Origin: Balanoglossus misakiensis
Taxonomy: Eukaryota; Animalia; Hemichordata
Direction of reading: 5' to 3'
Assembly: GCA_040954595.2 (NCBI GenBank)
Contig: JBECUI020000036.1
Span: 106,860 to 170,859 of the forward strand
DNA: 64,000 nt
Shown in pieces: positions 1 through 8,703 of this stretch (its first letter is position 1; each line of letters begins with the position of its first letter). The notes below the pieces were generated by a model. That model worked only from the letters and a program-made list of their open reading frames with translations. It was not told where the DNA came from and ran no database searches. The translations under genes and the position numbers were made by a program.

Positions 1-127
1 TTCAATATTTTCCTCAAATAATAGACACATAAAGTATATCGGAACTTTTCCTGTAATTCTTGCTAAATAATGTCTCATTATTTTTTGTTGTGTCTCACTT
101 TTTTGAACGGCTCCTCCTTGGCTTGAC

Positions 128-536
128 TCAATAAGAGAAAAAAAATGTGCATACGTACTTGCAAAGGGTGGCTGGTGGGGTGGAGTAGCGCAGGAAGACT
201 GCTTTCACAAAATTGGAAAAGCCATATTGAATTTTTTCTAATCCCGCTTCCTGCATCAACTTTTGCATCCTTGCAATGCCCGTTCCCATCTTTTCAATAT
301 AGTCAATTCTCTGCATGAGGTTGGCAATATTGGGATTTCTCAGCAAACTCACTTTAGCAAAGTCTTTTTCTCTTAATCCCTTCGGCAGCCCTCCCGGACT
401 GGTAATCTCCACCCTGTCATCAAAAATTTCAACCATAACATGGGCTCCCATCTCAAAATAATCTCGATGGATAACCGCATTAATAACTGCTTCTCTCAGA
501 GCCTCATAGGGGAGTTCGGGAATTTCTTTTCTAGCT
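128..536 (-). pseudogene. 5'-truncated HATPase_c_4 (RecG C-terminal-like / AlbA_2-associated) ATPase domain remnant
   Basis: Motifs PYEALREAVINAVIHRDY, VEIFDDRVEITSPGGLP, RNPNIA and IEKMGTGIARM. No N-terminal domain; similarity stops at the junction with the darT fragment (536/537). Confidence 0.8.
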
Positions 537-676
537 GGTGAGGGCAATTAAAACAAATTCAGACTCGGGACGTTTACTAATACACGCCCCATCAAAAGGA
601 TTATTCGCAAAAAAAGGAAGGGAACATAGCTGTTTAATTGTTTTCTTCTCTGAATTCTATAATCTCACAGTCCGCA
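537..676 (-). repeat. Degenerate direct-repeat copy of an internal darT segment (partner copy 4453-4594)
   Basis: Aligned by eye: 140 nt vs 142 nt, with 4 substitutions and 2 single-base deletions (~96% identity). Confidence 0.95.
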
Positions 677-698: not shown

Positions 699-3005
699 TC
701 ACTCTTTCCTGCGTTCTAATGCAAAACTATCTTTTTGCTGTTCCATTTGATAAAAGGCAATCTCCTTGCCCTCAAAAAGTTTCTTGATTGCTGTTTTCTT
801 TTTATAGTCGCACTTCATTCCAAAGGTGATGGATTTTATATTGCATGTTTCCAGTTCAAGGAATACCCCACCTTGTGCTTGGCTATACTTGATTGCACGT
901 ACCTCTTGTTCATAGTTCCAACACTTTGCTTTTGTAAAGAATCCACTCTCTATAAGAGCTGTTACTGATTGCCAATCATAGGTTATCTCTAAGTTGTCGG
1001 GATAGTGAACCTCCCCAATGGCAATCCTGTTCTTTTCCTGAAATTCTCTATCAAATCCATACTCAATGAATATGCCTGTATGGCTATCCGCGTAATGGCT
1101 CCACATAAGCATGTTTCCCCAACTTCTTTTATTTGCTTGTACAAAAGACCCAACCCTTATCTTTTTCCACTCTTCTTTGAGGAGAAGTGGCATATTCTTC
1201 TCCTTTGCAAGGGGACAATCCATTGGGTCATTAAAATTGTCGGGATCTGCCAGGTACAGCTCTCCGTTAATGAGAGCCTCTAATGTGTTTTGATTGACGG
1301 GTCTAAACTTGCCAATTCCTTGTTCTTTAACAGGCATTCCGGTAATAGCTAAGGCAATGGCTTGGCTATAGTCTGCTATTGCTCGATCATGCTTGCCTTG
1401 AGTAACATACGCATTCCCTCGATTATAATATGCCCTCGCCTGGTCGTTCTCATTGGTATATAGTTCTATGGCTTGGCTATAGTCTGCTATTGCACGGTCA
1501 TACTTGCCTGTATCACTATACGCAATTCCTCGATTATAATATGCCGCCGCCTTGCCGTTCTCATCGGTATATAGTTCTATAGCTTTGCCGTAGTCGGCTA
1601 TCGCCCGGTCATGCTCCCCTGTATCCCTATACGCAATCCCTCGATTAACATAAGCTTTCGCCTTGCTGTTCTCATCGGTATATAACGCTATCGCTTTGCC
1701 ATAGTCGGCTATTGCCTGGTCATACTTGCCTGTATCACTATACGCAATTCCTCGACCAACATAAGCCAACGCCTCGGTGTTCTTATCGGTAGATAGTTCT
1801 ATTGCTTGGCTATAGTCTGCTATTGCACGGTCATACTTACCTGTATCACTATACGCATCCCCTCGGAGAAAATATGCATTCGCCTTGTCGTTCTCATCGG
1901 CATATAGTTCTATAGCTTTGCCGTAGTCGGCTATTGCCTGGTCATGCTCGCCTTGAGCAACATACGCAATTCCTCGATTAGCATAAGCCTTTGCTTGCTC
2001 GTTCTTATCGGTAAATAGCCCTATTGCTTGGCTATAGTCTGCTATTGCCCGGTCATGCTCACCTTTACCCCTATACGCATTCCCTCGATTATAATATGCC
2101 TTTGCTTTGTCATTCCTACTGGTAAATAGCTCTATCGCTTTGCCATAGTCTGCTATTGCACGGTCATGCTCACCTTTAGCACTACACGCAGTTCCTCGAT
2201 TATAATATGCCTTCGCCTGGTCGTTCTCATTGGTATATAGTTCTATGGCTTTGCTATAGTCTGCTATTGCACGGTCATGCTCGCCTTGAGAACTATAAGC
2301 ATTCCCTCGACTATCATAAGCCTTCGCCTGGTCGTTCCTACCAGTGAATAACTCCATCGCTTTGTCAAAGTCTGCTATTGCTCGGACATGATCCCCTGTA
2401 TCCCTATACGCAATTCCTCGATTAACATAAGCTTTCGCCTTGCTGTTCTCATCGGTATATAGTTCTATAGCTTTGCCGTAGTCGGCTATCGCACGATCAT
2501 GCTCCCCTATATCCATATATGCAATTCCTCGACCAACATAAGCCAACGCCTCGGTGTTCTTATCGGTAGATAGTTCTATCGCTTGGCTATAGTCTGCTTT
2601 TGCCCGGTCATACTTACCTGTATCACTATACACATCCCCTCGGAGAAGATATGCATTCGCCTTGTCGTTCTCATCGGCATATAGTTCTATAGCTTTGCCG
2701 TAGTCTGCTATTGCCCGATCATACTTACCTGTATCACTATACGCATTTCCTCGGTTTTCATAAGCCCCTGCCTTGTTCTTCTTATCGGTATATAGTTCTA
2801 TCGCCTTGCCGTAGTCGGCTATTGCACGGTCATGCTTGCCTTGAGCAACATACGCATATCCTCGACCATCATAAGTCTTTGCCTTGGCACTCTTATTTGC
2901 AATCGGGGAGTTGATAATTTCAGTACAGCATTCTATCGCGCTGTCATAGTCGGCTGCTTTATAAAGCCGGACTGCTTGCTCGAATAGTTTTGCTATGTTT
3001 ATCAT
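699..3005 (-). CDS. TPR-array protein with C-terminal DUF2971-like domain
   Basis: 14 tandem 37-aa TPRs (AxAYxNRGxAYxxxGxxDRAIADYxKAIEL), then LYLADPDNFNDPMDC, MWSHYADSHTGIFIEY and FFTKAKCWNYEQEVR, which match my recollection of DUF2971 motifs. Confidence 0.85.
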   Translation of the reverse strand: MINIAKLFEQAVRLYKAADYDSAIECCTEIINSPIANKSAKAKTYDGRGYAYVAQGKHDRAIADYGKAIELYTDKKNKAGAYENRGNAYSDTGKYDRAIADYGKAIELYADENDKANAYLLRGDVYSDTGKYDRAKADYSQAIELSTDKNTEALAYVGRGIAYMDIGEHDRAIADYGKAIELYTDENSKAKAYVNRGIAYRDTGDHVRAIADFDKAMELFTGRNDQAKAYDSRGNAYSSQGEHDRAIADYSKAIELYTNENDQAKAYYNRGTACSAKGEHDRAIADYGKAIELFTSRNDKAKAYYNRGNAYRGKGEHDRAIADYSQAIGLFTDKNEQAKAYANRGIAYVAQGEHDQAIADYGKAIELYADENDKANAYFLRGDAYSDTGKYDRAIADYSQAIELSTDKNTEALAYVGRGIAYSDTGKYDQAIADYGKAIALYTDENSKAKAYVNRGIAYRDTGEHDRAIADYGKAIELYTDENGKAAAYYNRGIAYSDTGKYDRAIADYSQAIELYTNENDQARAYYNRGNAYVTQGKHDRAIADYSQAIALAITGMPVKEQGIGKFRPVNQNTLEALINGELYLADPDNFNDPMDCPLAKEKNMPLLLKEEWKKIRVGSFVQANKRSWGNMLMWSHYADSHTGIFIEYGFDREFQEKNRIAIGEVHYPDNLEITYDWQSVTALIESGFFTKAKCWNYEQEVRAIKYSQAQGGVFLELETCNIKSITFGMKCDYKKKTAIKKLFEGKEIAFYQMEQQKDSFALERRKE
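1347..2882 (-). repeat. Intragenic array of 14 x 111-bp TPR-coding repeats with a 777-bp higher-order duplication
   Basis: Units are highly similar at DNA level. Repeats 3-5 recur as 10-12 (e.g. gcttggctatagtctgc at 1804 and 2581). Confidence 0.92.
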
Positions 3006-3069
3006 GTAACCTTCTGCCCATACTTTTTATGTTATATCATCACATTCCCTACAAACAAGTACGGACTAT

Positions 3070-4116
3070 TCAAGAAATTTTACAAAGGAAATATCCCAAA
3101 AAAGTTTTTTCAATTAAATTGTGTTTTAGTAAAATATCGATCCCTTCTTTTATTACATCATCATTAAATCTTCTTTTCTCTTCCTTCGGCCATTTCTTAA
3201 ATTCTTCAATAATTTTTTCTTCACTTTCACATCCCTCGTTTATTAAATAAGCAACGGTTGCAGCTGTCTCAATAAGTAACGGATCTTTTATGCTTAAGGT
3301 TGTCTTTGTAGCTTGCTCAATGGGGATAGCAAATTTTTCTAATAGGCTCTCTGATCTTTTACTAATATGGGTATTGTAAGCCAATTCAAAAGCCTGAATG
3401 AGTTCTTTATTATAAAATGTTTTATATTCTTCAATTTGTTTAGAAATTAATTCAATAGCATAGCAGTAGGGGCCATATTTGTGTTTTACAAACTTAAAAT
3501 AAACCGTTTGAGCAAATAAGTTCATCAAAAAGGCCGTCTTTTGTAAAACAAGATCCGCTAGGAAAGCATTATCATTTTTACTGTTCCCCTTATCAATCCC
3601 AATCTTTAATTTCATAATAATCAAATGAGAAGCACTCAATTTAGGAGGCTCTTTGATATTGCTTGTATTCATTACTGCAGACGGCTCAAAAATAACTATT
3701 TGCACACCCTCTAAAAAAGATAATTTTTCCTCTATTTTCTGTTTAACAGTTGTCCAAGCAAGCCCCCCGTTTCCACTGCCCAGTGGAGGAATAGAAATAG
3801 TTTTAATCTTTCTTGTTTGAATTGTTTGAGCAAGATCTTTTAGTCCGTCATCAATAAAAGAATATTTTGATTTTTTTCTCCATTCATCTTTTGTCGGAAA
3901 ATTAATAATTATTCTTTCACCCTCTTTAACAACAAACATTTTACCAGTTTGCACTTTCTTTTTTTTACAAGCTTCTACGTATTGACGATTATTTTCAGGG
4001 AATCTAGTCTTGAATTGGTAGGCGATTCCCTTTCCCATATATCCTTCACAATTCACGGTATTCACAAGAGCTTGTGAATTTGATTCAAAAATATTTCCTG
4101 TTGTAAATTTAATCAT
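3070..4116 (-). CDS. darG: DarG antitoxin, macrodomain DNA ADP-ribosyl glycohydrolase
   Basis: GNIFES..ALVNTVNCEGYMGKGIAYQFK, IINFPTKDEWR, ISIPPLGSGNGGLAW; C-terminal LQK..YGPY region; 9 bp downstream of darT. Confidence 0.92.
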   Translation of the reverse strand: MIKFTTGNIFESNSQALVNTVNCEGYMGKGIAYQFKTRFPENNRQYVEACKKKKVQTGKMFVVKEGERIIINFPTKDEWRKKSKYSFIDDGLKDLAQTIQTRKIKTISIPPLGSGNGGLAWTTVKQKIEEKLSFLEGVQIVIFEPSAVMNTSNIKEPPKLSASHLIIMKLKIGIDKGNSKNDNAFLADLVLQKTAFLMNLFAQTVYFKFVKHKYGPYCYAIELISKQIEEYKTFYNKELIQAFELAYNTHISKRSESLLEKFAIPIEQATKTTLSIKDPLLIETAATVAYLINEGCESEEKIIEEFKKWPKEEKRRFNDDVIKEGIDILLKHNLIEKTFLGYFLCKIS

Positions 4117-4125
4117 AAAAATCCC

Positions 4126-4719
4126 TCACACTCTACATGCAAACATATGTGGGTTTATCTGAATAAATACCTCATTGCTTCCGCTCATGTTTTCTATTTC
4201 TTTTTTGGACTCTGCATTTCTTACATAGATTCTCTCAAAAAATTTTTTCTCCACTTTTGATGCTATTATACACTCGGCCATACAAGTTTGTTTGCAGTCC
4301 CTATCTTGATAGTCTCTTTTATCCATCAAATTCCAGTCTATTTTTTTATATCCTTCCTTGTAGGAATATATCTTCTTTTCATGATTTTTAAAATAATGAA
4401 TAGGATGGGTGGGAATAATTTTTGCCTGTAATTGGTTGCAGGCATCTTCGCGGGTGAGGGCAATTAAAACAAATTCAGACTCGGGACGTTTACTAATACA
4501 CGTCCCATCAAAAGGATTATTCGCAAAAAAATGGAAGGGAACATAGCTGTTTAAATTGTTTTCTTTTCTGAATTCTATAATCTCACGGTCTGCAATATCT
4601 ACAAAACTGCTCTTTAATTCACTTCTGGCCTGTAAGCCATTCTGAAAAATTGACTCTAAATTTTTAATATCAGTGAGATGATATATGAGTTTGCCGGCGC
4701 TTGGATTAATAGCGCACAT
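4126..4719 (-). CDS. darT: DarT (DUF4433) DNA ADP-ribosyltransferase toxin
   Basis: LIYHLTDIKNLESIFQNGL, YVPFHF and MAEC (candidate catalytic Glu); paired with a macrodomain gene. Confidence 0.88.
   Translation of the reverse strand: MCAINPSAGKLIYHLTDIKNLESIFQNGLQARSELKSSFVDIADREIIEFRKENNLNSYVPFHFFANNPFDGTCISKRPESEFVLIALTREDACNQLQAKIIPTHPIHYFKNHEKKIYSYKEGYKKIDWNLMDKRDYQDRDCKQTCMAECIIASKVEKKFFERIYVRNAESKKEIENMSGSNEVFIQINPHMFACRV
4453..4594 (-). repeat. Intact copy of the darT internal repeat (partner copy 537-676)
   Basis: Direct alignment with 537-676. Confidence 0.95.
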
Positions 4720-4767
4720 CGCTTTTCTCCCTTTAAAAATTATAGCATAAATGACTGTACTTTGTCA

Positions 4768-5000
4768 TTATGAATTGGCAAAACTTTTTTCAATGTTTAC
4801 TTCTTCTTTCAGCAAGGTCGCCTCATCCAGGGTCGTCTGCGTTCCCTCAATCTTGCTGGAGGTAACCGCTTCCCGCTTTGCGTACATGGTAATAAAAGAA
4901 TCAATATCGGGAACCAGTGTAGAATACGCCTCCAGAGAACCTAAACCACGCATTGCATTCCCGAGCAAGAGGTCAATCTCCTTATCTTCCCAATATTTTT
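4768..5000 (-). pseudogene. Fic-family N-terminal remnant
   Basis: LGNAMRGLGSL...MYAKREAVTSSKIEGTQTTLDE is typical of Fic N-termini. It stops after ~70 aa, before any HPFxxGNGR motif. Confidence 0.8.
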
Positions 5001-5073
5001 ATTTAAGCAATGCCAAAATGCGAGAATAATTCAAACTACTTGATTACAGATTCTATAATTTCAAGACAAATCC

Positions 5074-5103
5074 TTGCATAATAAAGAGACTATAAAATAT
5101 AAT
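5074..5103 (+). promoter_or_regulatory. Putative sigma70 promoter of topA (likely leaderless)
   Basis: TTGCAT-18 nt-TATAAT, ATG 7 nt downstream, no Shine-Dalgarno. Confidence 0.5.
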
Positions 5104-5110
5104 CGTATAC

Positions 5111-7468
5111 ATGAAAAAAACCGAACGCATCCTTGTTATTGTTGAATCTCCCACGAAGGCTAAGACCATTAAACGTTTTCTTTCTGACGAATATAATGTT
5201 CAGGCAACGTATGGACATATACGGGATTTGCCACAATCGGCAAGTGATATTCCGAAGGGGTTGAAACAATACGCATGGACCAGACTCGGGATTGATGTTG
5301 AAAATAATTTTCAACCCTTGTACATTACCCCTCGAACAAGTAAGAAGACTATCACTAATCTACAAAAGGAGATGAAGGATTGTACATCTATTCTACTGGC
5401 AACGGACGAAGACCGCGAAGGGGAAAGCATCTGTTGGCATCTTCTAGAACTGCTACAGCCGAAAAAGGAAATTAAACGAATTGTTTTCCATGAAATAACG
5501 AATGAGGCAATTGATCACGCCATTAAGAATGCACGAGATGTGAATATGAAACTCGTACGGGCACAGGAATCTCGGCGCATACTAGATCGCCTCTACGGAT
5601 ATACCCTATCCCCTCTGATCTGGAAAAAGATTGCATACGGATTAAGTGCAGGACGGGTGCAGTCGCCCGCACTCCGCATCCTTATTGAGCGAGAACGAGA
5701 ACGAATACAGTTCGTATCAAGCGAATACTGGGATATCAAAGCAGAACTGGCAAACGAGAAGGAGATCGAATTTCAGGCACTTCTCTCTAAGGTTGATAAT
5801 AAGACAGTCGCCGGCACAAAACATTTTGACTCCACAACCGGTGTCTTTACCGGCAACGAAACAGTTATGCTACTAAATAAACAAGAAACCGCAGATCTAT
5901 GTACGGAACTAGAAGGAGTTGATTGGATCGTTACCGATCTGACATCACGAGACAGCACCTTGCGACCATCTCCCCCCTTCATTACATCAACATTGCAACA
6001 AGAAGGAAACAGAAAACTCGGATTGAGTACGCGCCAAACCATGCGTACCGCACAACAGCTATACGAAAAAGGATTAATCACCTATATGCGAACCGACTCG
6101 CCCATGCTCTCGCAGGAAGCAATTCGCGCCGCACGGCAGGCAGTACAGACTAGAATTGGGGAGGAGTATCTTTCACCGAAGTCTCGTCAGTACACCGCAC
6201 GATCCCGGCAAGCACAGGAGGCACACGAAGCCATTCGCCCCGCCGGATCCGTTTTTCGTGATCCCAAAACAATAACTTTTGATTCTACCGCTGAACAGCG
6301 CCTCTACACTATGATCTATCAACGAACACTTGCATCTCAAATGGCAGATGCTAAACGACGAACATATAATGTACAGATTCAGGCGGGCAGGACTATTTTT
6401 AATGCAACCGCAACAGTTACCACTTTTGCAGGATTCTTGCGTGCTACTGCCACAAAAGAAAAGGGCCCGCGCAATACCGAAGAAATTTCTACAATCACTC
6501 CGGGCAGTGTTCTTACAGTGCGGGATATTCAACCCGTAGAACATCATACAAAGGCGCCACCGCGTTATACAGAGGCAAGCCTCGTGCAAAAGCTCGAAGG
6601 AATGGACATCGGGAGACCATCAACATATGCAAGCATTATTTCAACCCTCTACGAACGAAAATATGCTCGAAAGAAGGATAATGCCATTATTCCTACATTT
6701 GTCGGCATTGCCGTTATCCAATTCCTAGAAGAACATTTTGAATACCTCGTTACATACGAGTTTACATCAAACATGGAAGAAGCTCTGGATCAGATAGCGG
6801 GGGGGAACCTCGATTCAATAGCATACCTGAAAGAATTTTATCTCACCGATGCCGGATTGCATCAAAAAGTTGAACAGGGTGAACAGGAGATTGAGGCCGA
6901 ACCATGCCGGGTCATCCACCTTCCTTACGAACTACCTGAAAGTACGGAAATACGGGTCGGTCGTTTCGGTCCCTACGTCGTCTTGACCGAAAAGGGAACC
7001 GAAGCCCTTACTTTTTCTCTCCCCGATGAGACCGCACCTGACGAGATAAATAAGGAAGTCATTCAATCACTTGCCGAAATAGAGAGGCGCGGTCCAATTG
7101 TTATTGGAACCGACCCGGAGAGTGGGAAAAAAATATACTGCCTCCATGGACGATATGGACCTCATTTACAACTCGGCGAAAATGACACCGAAAAGAAACC
7201 ACGTCGGGCGGCACTTGATATCCCACCGGAGGAGGTTACTCTGGAACATGCTATAAAACTATTTAGCCTGCCTCGAACACTCGGGGTGCATCCGAGTACA
7301 GAGAAGGAAATACGAGCATCCATCGGTCCCTACGGCCCGTACATCGTCCATGACGGTGATTTTCGATCACTTAAGAATGATGATGTATACACAATTGAGT
7401 TGGACAGGGCTTTAGAGATTCTCGCTCAGAAAAAAACAGTTCGAAAAAAACGTACAAAGAATAAATAA
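5111..7468 (+). CDS. topA: DNA topoisomerase I
   Basis: LVIVESPTKAKTI, ATDEDREGE, SAGRVQS, ITYMRTD, GIGRPST-like motif; C-terminal GRFGPY/GRYGP repeats. Confidence 0.97.
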   Translation: MKKTERILVIVESPTKAKTIKRFLSDEYNVQATYGHIRDLPQSASDIPKGLKQYAWTRLGIDVENNFQPLYITPRTSKKTITNLQKEMKDCTSILLATDEDREGESICWHLLELLQPKKEIKRIVFHEITNEAIDHAIKNARDVNMKLVRAQESRRILDRLYGYTLSPLIWKKIAYGLSAGRVQSPALRILIERERERIQFVSSEYWDIKAELANEKEIEFQALLSKVDNKTVAGTKHFDSTTGVFTGNETVMLLNKQETADLCTELEGVDWIVTDLTSRDSTLRPSPPFITSTLQQEGNRKLGLSTRQTMRTAQQLYEKGLITYMRTDSPMLSQEAIRAARQAVQTRIGEEYLSPKSRQYTARSRQAQEAHEAIRPAGSVFRDPKTITFDSTAEQRLYTMIYQRTLASQMADAKRRTYNVQIQAGRTIFNATATVTTFAGFLRATATKEKGPRNTEEISTITPGSVLTVRDIQPVEHHTKAPPRYTEASLVQKLEGMDIGRPSTYASIISTLYERKYARKKDNAIIPTFVGIAVIQFLEEHFEYLVTYEFTSNMEEALDQIAGGNLDSIAYLKEFYLTDAGLHQKVEQGEQEIEAEPCRVIHLPYELPESTEIRVGRFGPYVVLTEKGTEALTFSLPDETAPDEINKEVIQSLAEIERRGPIVIGTDPESGKKIYCLHGRYGPHLQLGENDTEKKPRRAALDIPPEEVTLEHAIKLFSLPRTLGVHPSTEKEIRASIGPYGPYIVHDGDFRSLKNDDVYTIELDRALEILAQKKTVRKKRTKNK

Positions 7469-7496: not shown

Positions 7497-8703
7497 TTAC
7501 TTGTGCATTTTTTGGTAGTAGTTCGCTTCGGTTACAATTCTTTTTGTATCGTGCACATGAATCTTGCCTTCAATAGTACTGATAGAGTTGTTTGCTAATA
7601 ATTCGCGTAAGGCAATATTTCCCTGTTCCATTGGCAACCCAACCCATTTAATTAACTCTTGAGGTCCGAAACTAAGCACATATTGTTGCCCCTCTTCGAT
7701 AGGGATATGAAGTTTCTCAAGCTGCACCAAGATAGCATCATACATCCGAGCAATCTTGTTTGGAATAACCGCATTGGACAGTTGCCGATATACCACCCAT
7801 ATACGTTCAGCAAGAAGAGTCGTTAACCGAACGATAATCTGTGGCTGGGAATTGACGATACGCTGAAAGTTTTCACGGTTTACCGAAAGCAAAACGGAAT
7901 CCTCATATGCAATGGCAGAGGCAGACCGGGGCTTTTGCTCAAGCAATGCCATTTCTCCGAATATATCTCCCGTGCGGAGGATAGCAAGCAAGACCTCGTT
8001 ATTATTCACTATCTTAGTAATCTTCACGCTACCTTGCTGAATAATATACATCTCCTTGCCTGGCATCATTTCGGAAAAGATCATGCTGTTTTTGGGATAG
8101 TTCCGAATAAATTCATTCGAATGTTCCATCTCTTCAAGATATACTACCGCAGTTGCCTGTTCCTTTATGCTCTCCATGCGCTTCTTGACCTCAAGCCCTC
8201 GTGGATCGTTCGGACAAAGTTTTCAGAAACTGATAATAGACATAGTATGCCTGACTGAATTGTTGTTGTGCATCATAGTACGCAGCAATCGTATAAGTAT
8301 GTTCAATCCTGATGTCGCCAGCGCTGGAGCCGGTTAAATTAGCAAGGGCACTATCCAAATACCTCATACGACGAGAAAAACTTTCAATAATTTTCATAGC
8401 AACCGCTGTATTTCGCTTAATGAGATTGCCGTATTCATCCTTATGAACAGCAATTAATACGCAGTCCGTTAATGCCTGTACCGTTTCAATACTACGTTGT
8501 GCAGACATAGCAGAAATAACACCGAAGAAGTCGCCCGGATTGAGGATATTTCCGCTCTCTTCCTGTACGACCTCAGCACTCTTCGTTATCTTGACCACTC
8601 CTGATTGAATGATAAAGAAGCGAGTTAACTCCGCTTTACCCTCTACAATAATATACGCTCCCTTGCTAAAGCGTACTAATGATATCTGAGTACTAGTGTT
8701 CAT
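7497..8703 (-). CDS. Tandem cNMP-binding domain (Crp/Fnr-like) protein, split by a +1 frameshift near 8220-8223
   Basis: Two cNMP domains (PGDFFGVIS; [19 protein letters not shown]). Removing one A joins the ORFs as [25 protein letters not shown]. Confidence 0.8.

What the first reader, a model, noticed from the sequence alone, without database searches (positions are those of the whole stretch)
699..4719. Candidate three-gene ADP-ribosylation defence system: DarT + DarG + TPR-sensor/DUF2971 effector
Seen: darT, darG and the TPR-DUF2971 gene are co-directional with 9-bp and 64-bp gaps. They lie in a block bounded by two pseudogene remnants, and darTG is visibly more AT-rich than the backbone. 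Established: macrodomain-type DarTG is a DNA ADP-ribosylating toxin-antitoxin system with anti-phage activity. Inference: as I recall, DUF2971 has been grouped with ART-like folds (needs confirming). The third gene could then be a ligand-triggered second ADP-ribosyltransferase/NADase, possibly sharing the DarG eraser, or a phage sensor feeding into DarT. I do not know this combination as a described system.
Basis: partly seen in the sequence, partly recalled or inferred. Interest (0 to 1): 0.8.

Follow-up and report, generated by a model that had tools for sequence, protein, structure and literature searches.

The report
DarTG beside separate TPR-ART defence gene
A known two-gene anti-phage toxin-antitoxin pair (DarTG) sits next to a gene that joins a long repeat array, likely a sensor, to a domain predicted to have the ADP-ribosyltransferase fold of a known single-gene phage defence; the two are likely independent neighbours in a defence hotspot rather than one new three-gene system.

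Summary
The three genes, their spacing and the flanking remnants are real. darT and darG form an ordinary macrodomain-type DarTG2 pair with the expected catalytic residues. The third protein has 14 TPR repeats plus DUF2971 (PADLOC PDC-S31), whose model matches ADP-ribosyltransferase folds (Tpt1 Z 8.2, DarT Z 7.1). That part is in print: DUF2971 is described as ART-like, and the single-gene abortive-infection system Aristaios is a DUF2971 protein. Coupling to DarTG is not supported. No DUF2971 lay near 123 darT/darG loci (15 lineages with enough flank), no darTG near 80 DUF2971 loci, and the two families co-occurred at chance level in 702 genomes. The TPR gene has host-like composition; darTG does not. 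No spirochaete genomes could be sampled. What remains interesting is the TPR-DUF2971 fusion itself: common in databases, not found in my paper searches, with near-identical repeats that vary at the predicted binding groove. Earlier scan notes on other genomes also saw DUF2971 as a swappable passenger. Verdict: undescribed sensor-fused variant of a known effector, next to a known system.

The parts
4768..4968 (-). Fic_N gene remnant (truncated)
   Evidence: PF13784 E 2e-15 over 57 of 82 positions; stops on both sides
4739..4768 (-). best sigma-70-like site of the region, 20 bp upstream of darT (ATGACA-18-TATAAT with TG)
   Evidence: 11 of 12 matches; the total number of sites, 17, is about that of shuffles (15.3), so only position and score argue for it
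4126..4719 (-). darT, DNA ADP-ribosyltransferase toxin, 197 aa, of a divergent DarT2 subfamily
   Evidence: Pfam, PADLOC; below the NCBIfam cut-off, 64.8 vs 150 bits; H14, R51 and E149 invariant in 20 aligned subfamily members
3070..4116 (-). darG, macrodomain antitoxin, 348 aa
   Evidence: NF048014 above cut-off; K76 aligns with the FPTK lysine of solved DarG macrodomains 5m31 and 5m3i, invariant in 40 of 40
1332..2885 (-). 14 TPR repeats of 37 aa (111 bp), residues 41-558 of the 768-aa protein, with an internal 7-unit duplication
   Evidence: 91% aa identity over 100 aa between residues 105-204 and 364-463
699..1340 (-). DUF2971 / PDC-S31 domain, predicted ADP-ribosyltransferase fold, residues 556-768
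   Evidence: model pLDDT 92; VIA Z 8.2 to Tpt1, 7.1-6.2 to four DarT chains; Y638, E699, E701, R703 invariant in 144
534..676 (-). decayed internal copy of darT (codons about 42-90), direct repeat of 4450-4594
   Evidence: 95% over 145 bp, two 1-bp deletions; both of its junctions stand in contigs of run X1
128..547 (-). HATPase_c_4 (RecG C-terminal-like) gene remnant, fused to the darT copy
   Evidence: PF13749 E 3e-23; no 5' part, frame breaks at the 3' end
5111..7468 (+). topA, the core gene beside which the variable block begins
   Evidence: a second contig of run X1 leaves the window's sequence at 5067, just upstream of topA

Best explanation
This is likely a defence hotspot beside topA in a spirochaete that holds two independent modules: an ordinary DarTG2 toxin-antitoxin pair, and a single-gene sensor-effector in which a 14-repeat TPR array is predicted to bind a phage protein and would switch on a DUF2971 (Aristaios-like) ADP-ribosyltransferase. 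Shown: gene identities, conserved residues, predicted fold, repeat structure, remnants. From established knowledge: DarT2 ADP-ribosylates thymidines in single-stranded DNA; DarG removes the mark through its macrodomain and binds DarT. Inferred: the TPR groove is the ligand site; binding releases the tightly attached ART domain; the domain uses NAD+ to modify a nucleic acid (nearest folds are Tpt1 and DarT) or a protein and aborts infection; it needs neither DarT nor DarG. The three genes may share one transcript from the site upstream of darT without sharing a mechanism. The darT fragment and the Fic and HATPase remnants record repeated gain and deletion at this site.
For: Effector: PDC-S31 E 6.8e-40; the top ten VIA rows are headed by Tpt1 and DarT chains and the top Foldseek rows are DarT, though none reaches E 0.001; Aristaios, a DUF2971 protein, works as a single gene (PMC11381338). 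Independence: 0 of 123 darT/darG loci held a DUF2971 or TPR gene; the nearest sizeable gene after darG differed from locus to locus in 17 examined; 0 of 80 viral DUF2971 loci held darT or darG; DarT and DUF2971 shared 6 of 301 and 2 of 401 genomes against 3.9 and 2.1 expected, Fisher p 0.25 and 1.0; in prophage L114 a TPR-DUF2971 gene follows an ABC-ATPase defence-like pair instead; GC3 is 0.40 for the TPR gene and 0.25/0.34 for darG/darT. Sensor: 33 of 144 aligned proteins match TPR_1; repeat variation concentrates at helix-A groove positions, mean entropy 1.66 against 0.19 at structural positions, p 0.0016 against the other non-structural positions; last five TPRs plus the domain model as one rigid unit, pTM 0.91.
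Against: The genes are co-directional, closely spaced, with no terminator-like site found between them. In 2 of 80 DarT-bearing genomes a stand-alone DUF2971 gene lies about 4 kb from darG, though on the opposite strand, without TPR, and in one shared island. No spirochaete genome could be sampled and only one other TPR-DUF2971 locus (L114) was seen with its neighbours, so a lineage-specific linkage is not excluded. Many loci had short flanks: only 15 of 42 darG lineages had 2.9 kb or more downstream. Groove variation is expected of most TPR proteins (own knowledge) and does not prove immunity. The domain departs from its family at two conserved positions, G565 for Tyr and F646 for Cys. No activity was measured.
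Confidence: 0.7

Rival explanations
1. The three genes are one system: the TPR-DUF2971 protein is a second, ligand-triggered writer whose mark DarG erases, or a sensor that triggers DarT.
For: Operon-like layout and one strong promoter-like site; the domain's nearest folds include DarT; DarTG variants with an essential third gene exist (DarHTG, PMC13069673).
Against: No recurrence in 123 darT/darG loci, 80 DUF2971 loci or 80 DarT-bearing genomes as an adjacent, co-directional gene; chance-level co-occurrence; different base composition; DarG did not remove guanine ADP-ribose in PMC11543638, so it is not a general eraser.
Confidence: 0.1
2. The block is a decaying relic: the TPR gene or the whole island no longer works and is being lost by deletion.
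For: Three broken pieces around the genes (Fic, darT copy, HATPase); the 145-bp direct repeats could delete the 3.9 kb between them; two unusual substitutions in the domain.
Against: All three frames are intact; 20 of 21 positions conserved in at least 90% of the family are kept in the domain, 25 of 26 in DarT and 48 of 51 in DarG (homologues were picked by likeness to the query, which inflates these counts); the repeats are constrained at structural positions, pN 0.04 against pS 0.42.
Confidence: 0.1
3. The TPR-DUF2971 protein acts outside phage defence, for example on an animal host or as a stress-response ADP-ribosyltransferase.
For: PMC12522546 predicts about 18% of DUF2971 proteins to be effectors; an unchecked scan note places another piece of this assembly in an animal, so the bacterium may be host-associated.
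Against: The N-terminus shows no hydrophobic signal peptide by eye (no predictor run); the gene sits among defence-island residents; a homologue rides in a prophage cargo position; the only tested DUF2971 protein I found is anti-phage.
Confidence: 0.1

Closest known systems
DarTG2 (DarT with macrodomain DarG; PMC11543638 passages; LeRoux et al. 2022 not held, cited through other papers)
   Same: darT then darG, 9 bp apart; catalytic Glu of DarT and Lys of DarG in place; found among defence genes and in prophages
   Different: DarT is of a divergent subfamily (AEC motif, below the NCBIfam cut-off); the modified base and motif were not tested
Aristaios (Lactococcus single-gene abortive infection, DUF2971; PMC11381338, PMC13064643)
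   Same: DUF2971 domain with predicted ART fold; single-gene effector
   Different: Aristaios is 316 aa and described as mostly ART domain; this protein adds 14 TPR repeats. I did not align it with Aristaios itself
PADLOC PDC-S31 (phage defence candidate; PDC set described in 10.1101/2024.01.29.577857)
   Same: four PDC-S31 models match the C-terminal domain, best E 6.8e-40
   Different: the models (208-273 positions) have no room for the TPR array; the paper's main text does not name S31 and its supplements were closed
DarHTG (three-gene DarTG variant, PMC13069673)
   Same: precedent for a third gene beside darTG
   Different: its third gene is a helicase, is required, and its DarG is ARH-like; none of that holds here
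Fungal NLRs with highly conserved TPR repeats (PMC4986451)
   Same: over 85% identity across 100 aa of repeats; variation on the concave face
   Different: no NTPase domain here; bacterial; selection not formally shown

Membership tests
DarTG2 | DarT-family ART gene directly followed by a macrodomain DarG gene | tested here: met
DarTG2 | catalytic Glu in DarT and catalytic Lys in the DarG macrodomain | tested here: met
   E149 in an invariant AEC motif that aligns with the AAC of 7omu, which I take to be the inactivated site; K76 aligns with the FPTK lysine of 5m31; K80 named as catalytic in PMC11543638
DarTG2 | NCBIfam DarT equivalog score above cut-off | tested here: not met
   64.8 vs 150 bits; Pfam and PADLOC models pass, so this marks a divergent subfamily
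DarTG2 | thymidine ADP-ribosylation of ssDNA reversed by DarG | not testable with these tools
   needs biochemistry
DUF2971 / PDC-S31 / Aristaios-like ART | PF11185 above gathering score and PDC-S31 match | tested here: met
DUF2971 / PDC-S31 / Aristaios-like ART | ART fold with conserved Tyr and ExE motif (PMC12522546) | tested here: met
   VIA Z 8.2 (rmsd 2.9, 113 aligned) to Tpt1 and 7.1 (rmsd 4.0, 144 aligned) to DarT; Y638 and E699/E701 invariant. Z of 7-8 alone is middling; the run of ART rows and the published assignment carry the claim. Which Tyr the paper means was not checked
DUF2971 / PDC-S31 / Aristaios-like ART | anti-phage activity as a single gene | not testable with these tools
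   shown for Aristaios only
DUF2971 / PDC-S31 / Aristaios-like ART | orthology to Aristaios itself | not tested
   its sequence was not fetched
Conserved three-gene DarTG variant (DarHTG type) | third gene recurs beside darTG in unrelated genomes | tested here: not met
   spirochaetes not sampled
Conserved three-gene DarTG variant (DarHTG type) | third gene required for defence | not testable with these tools
   needs phage challenge
NLR / STAND receptors | central NACHT or NB-ARC NTPase | tested here: not met
   TPR repeats run from residue 41 to 558 straight into DUF2971
NLR / STAND receptors | high internal repeat conservation (over 85% across 100 aa, PMC4986451) | tested here: met
   91% over 100 aa, from one internal duplication; mean pairwise identity of 13 repeats is 68%

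The most novel reading that the evidence does not exclude
Two writers, one eraser: a repeat-shuffling TPR receptor fused directly to a DarT-like ADP-ribosyltransferase has been recruited into a DarTG operon, detects a phage protein without any NTPase switch, and lays a nucleic-acid mark that DarG keeps in check. The receptor half of this reading (TPR-gated DUF2971 as a widespread stand-alone immune receptor) is much likelier, about 0.45, than the coupling.
Probability: 0.08. Interest if true: 0.75.

Novelty: new variant of a known kind. Interest (0 to 1): 0.35.

Why it matters
How DUF2971/Aristaios effectors are triggered and what they modify is listed as unknown (PMC13064643). A natural fusion to a long, variable TPR array separates the likely sensor from the enzyme, so the trigger and the substrate can be tested one at a time. 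The three-gene claim would have mattered for how DarT is activated, but the comparative evidence does not support it.

Tried and rejected
No whole genome is held for the window, so no own-genome or relative search was possible. A word-based homologue search of residues 556-768 among 422-1344-aa proteins found nothing; the HMMER search did (8320 hits at E 0.001). A complex prediction of DarG with the last five TPRs plus the DUF2971 domain gave no answer; it is evidence neither way. The ESM Atlas gave no result. No RNA holder was listed, which says nothing on expression. In run X1 no diverged darT contig was laid although a diverged DUF2971 allele was; a lack of cover proves nothing. Window 1-434 had no cover, yet one search shows a 13.5-kb contig with the darT-copy/HATPase junction. 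The viral fold library gave only weak unnamed matches. The profile search of solved structures returned only TPR-type matches in the 60 rows shown. No plasmid held both TPR and DUF2971 parts in one place (0 of 563 records at 80% cover). The tree of 144 domains needs 12 changes of the TPR label (at least 6 on starred branches), so TPR fusion is not one clean clade, but my label misses degenerate repeats. pN above pS at groove positions (0.41 vs 0.28) was not tested formally and repeats are not independent. Assembly artefact was considered and rejected for the gene junctions and the darT copy; the exact repeat count cannot be checked from contigs. Paper searches: DUF2971 (6 papers, 5 listed), Aristaios, DarTG with tetratricopeptide (2 papers, nothing relevant in the passages of PMC13092281), PDC-S31 (0), ART with TPR and anti-phage terms (1 unrelated listing, 0). 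Supplements of these papers were not read and might list TPR-DUF2971 candidates.
Full report
Observation. Three minus-strand ORFs lie at 4126-4719 (197 aa), 3070-4116 (348 aa) and 699-3005 (768 aa), 9 and 64 bp apart. They match DarT, DarG and TPR repeats plus DUF2971. A Fic_N fragment precedes them and a HATPase_c_4 fragment follows. darTG is 32.6% G+C against 43.0 +/- 1.8% for backbone bins; the TPR gene is 44.0%, with host-like GC3 of 0.40. The host is likely a spirochaete: of the six listed homologues of a backbone gene that name Spirochaetota, Treponema or similar, against one Clostridia.

A 145-bp, 95%-identical copy of darT codons about 42-90 lies at 534-676, 22 bp after the TPR gene's stop, has two 1-bp deletions and is fused to the HATPase remnant. 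Contigs of run X1 hold both junctions of this copy and one 1724-bp contig spans the TPR gene start, darG and the 3' part of darT with 6 differences. X1 may be the sample or a close kin of the sample behind the window, so it is a check on assembly, not independent support. X1 also holds a second DUF2971 allele about 88% alike and a contig that leaves the window's sequence at 5067, just upstream of topA. I read this as a variable site beside topA with repeated gains and deletions (inference).

DarTG. DarT keeps H14, R51 and E149, invariant among 20 subfamily members; it falls below the NCBIfam cut-off, so the subfamily is divergent. DarG passes its cut-off and keeps the lysine of the FPTK motif. 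By PMC11543638 (passages), macrodomain-linked DarT2 modifies thymidine in ssDNA and DarG reverses it and binds DarT. This pair is known biology.

The C-terminal domain. Residues 556-768 match PF11185 and PADLOC PDC-S31 (E 6.8e-40) and have 8320 relatives at E 0.001 among 50%-identity clusters. The model (pLDDT 92) is nearest to tRNA 2'-phosphotransferase (Z 8.2) and four DarT chains (Z 7.1-6.2) among 48,161 chains; Foldseek ranks DarT first but with no match at E 0.001. Y638, K692, E699, E701 and R703 are invariant in 144 aligned proteins; the protein departs from the family at G565 and F646. PMC12522546 (passages and section 21) already assigns DUF2971 to the ART superfamily near DarT and AbiGi, and does not mention TPR or DarG in its main text. 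PMC11381338 (passages) shows that Aristaios, a DUF2971 protein, protects Lactococcus as a single gene; PMC13064643 and PMC12967558 (passages) say it blocks phage transcription or protein production, trigger and mechanism unknown. PDC systems are untested candidates found embedded in other systems (10.1101/2024.01.29.577857, passages; S31 is not named in the main text and supplements were closed).

Is the third gene linked to DarTG? I tested from both sides. Of 123 loci fetched around darT or darG, none held a DUF2971 or TPR gene; they fall into 42 darG lineages, of which 15 had 2.9 kb or more downstream. In 17 of these loci the nearest sizeable gene after darG was a transporter, portal, integrase, methylase or unnamed gene, with no shared third gene. 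Of 80 viral DUF2971 loci none held darT or darG. Of 80 DarT-bearing genomes from three phyla (81 found, one partial match left out), 11 had a DUF2971 match, and 2 had it on the darT contig within 10 kb; both are versions of one island with a stand-alone 216-aa gene about 4 kb from darG on the opposite strand. Genome-level overlap was 6 of 301 and 2 of 401 against 3.9 and 2.1 expected (Fisher p 0.25, 1.0). The one other TPR-DUF2971 locus I could read, prophage L114, follows an ABC-ATPase defence-like pair. Limits: no spirochaete genome could be sampled, some PF14487 matches are not DarTG2, many genomes are incomplete and many flanks short. In favour of coupling stand only the layout, one 11-of-12 promoter-like site before darT and no terminator-like site between the genes, and the precedent of DarHTG (PMC13069673, passages).

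The TPR array. Fourteen 37-aa repeats run from residue 41 to 558. Thirteen of them average 68% identity, and a 7-unit duplication gives 91% over 100 aa, which meets the high-internal-conservation rule of PMC4986451 (passages). Variation concentrates at helix-A positions 2, 3, 5, 6, 9, 12, 13 (the groove set is recalled, not from a call): mean entropy 1.66 against 0.19 at structural positions, p 0.0016 against the other non-structural positions. This pattern is common in TPR proteins and does not prove immunity. TPR-DUF2971 fusions are frequent: 33 of 144 aligned proteins match TPR_1, with differing repeat numbers, and similar arrays carry TIR, FRG, PNP, CHAT, kinase or protease domains. The last five repeats and the domain model as one unit, pTM 0.91, with no flexible linker; I could not see whether the active site is covered.

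Mechanism. Most likely (0.7) two independent modules share a hotspot. DarTG2 works as described. The TPR-DUF2971 protein likely binds a phage protein in its groove, which would release the ART domain to modify a nucleic acid or protein with NAD+ and abort infection. The ligand, the gating and the substrate are inferred. Rivals: one coupled system (0.1), a decaying relic (0.1), a role outside phage defence (0.1).

Novelty. DarTG2 is known, DUF2971 as an ART-like anti-phage effector is in print, and the three-gene combination did not recur. My searches found no description of the TPR-fused form; subscription papers and supplements were not seen. Earlier unchecked scan notes on other genomes describe DUF2971 genes, one of them TPR-fused, as separate passengers. 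I score it as a new variant of a known kind, interest 0.35.

Noticed in passing
window 534-676 and 4450-4594: The two 145-bp direct repeats bracket darG, the TPR gene and the 3' half of darT; recombination between them would delete 3.9 kb and remove the whole block's function in one step.
   Followed up: partly
window 5067-5110: The variable block begins right upstream of a promoter-like stretch before topA; run X1 has a second contig with other sequence joined at 5067.
   Followed up: partly
window 928-1271: Run X1 holds a second DUF2971 allele or paralogue about 88% alike, with a 6-bp deletion, and contigs with other repeat joints in the TPR array.
   Followed up: partly
window 8191-8703 and 7497-8177 (-): Two cNMP-binding ORFs (170 and 226 aa, 13 bp apart) whose sum matches 365-396-aa homologues; 230-240-aa homologues also exist, so the split may be natural.
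   Followed up: no
L114:2221-6639: Prophage cargo: ABC-three-component-like pair (PDC-M68B / LmuB hit) followed by a 512-aa TPR-DUF2971 gene, next to the terminase.
   Followed up: partly
L113:6924-8996 and L112:2255-3409: Stand-alone DUF2971 directly downstream of a gene of the same HATPase-bearing kind whose remnant flanks the window's block (judged by eye and by shared PADLOC hits).
   Followed up: no
L003:6962-9289: A second DarT-like ORF lies between darT and darG in a Serratia locus.
   Followed up: no
protein P0006: A 1456-aa protein in which a restriction-modification methyltransferase-like part (by eye) precedes TPR-DUF2971; may be a read-through of two genes.
   Followed up: no
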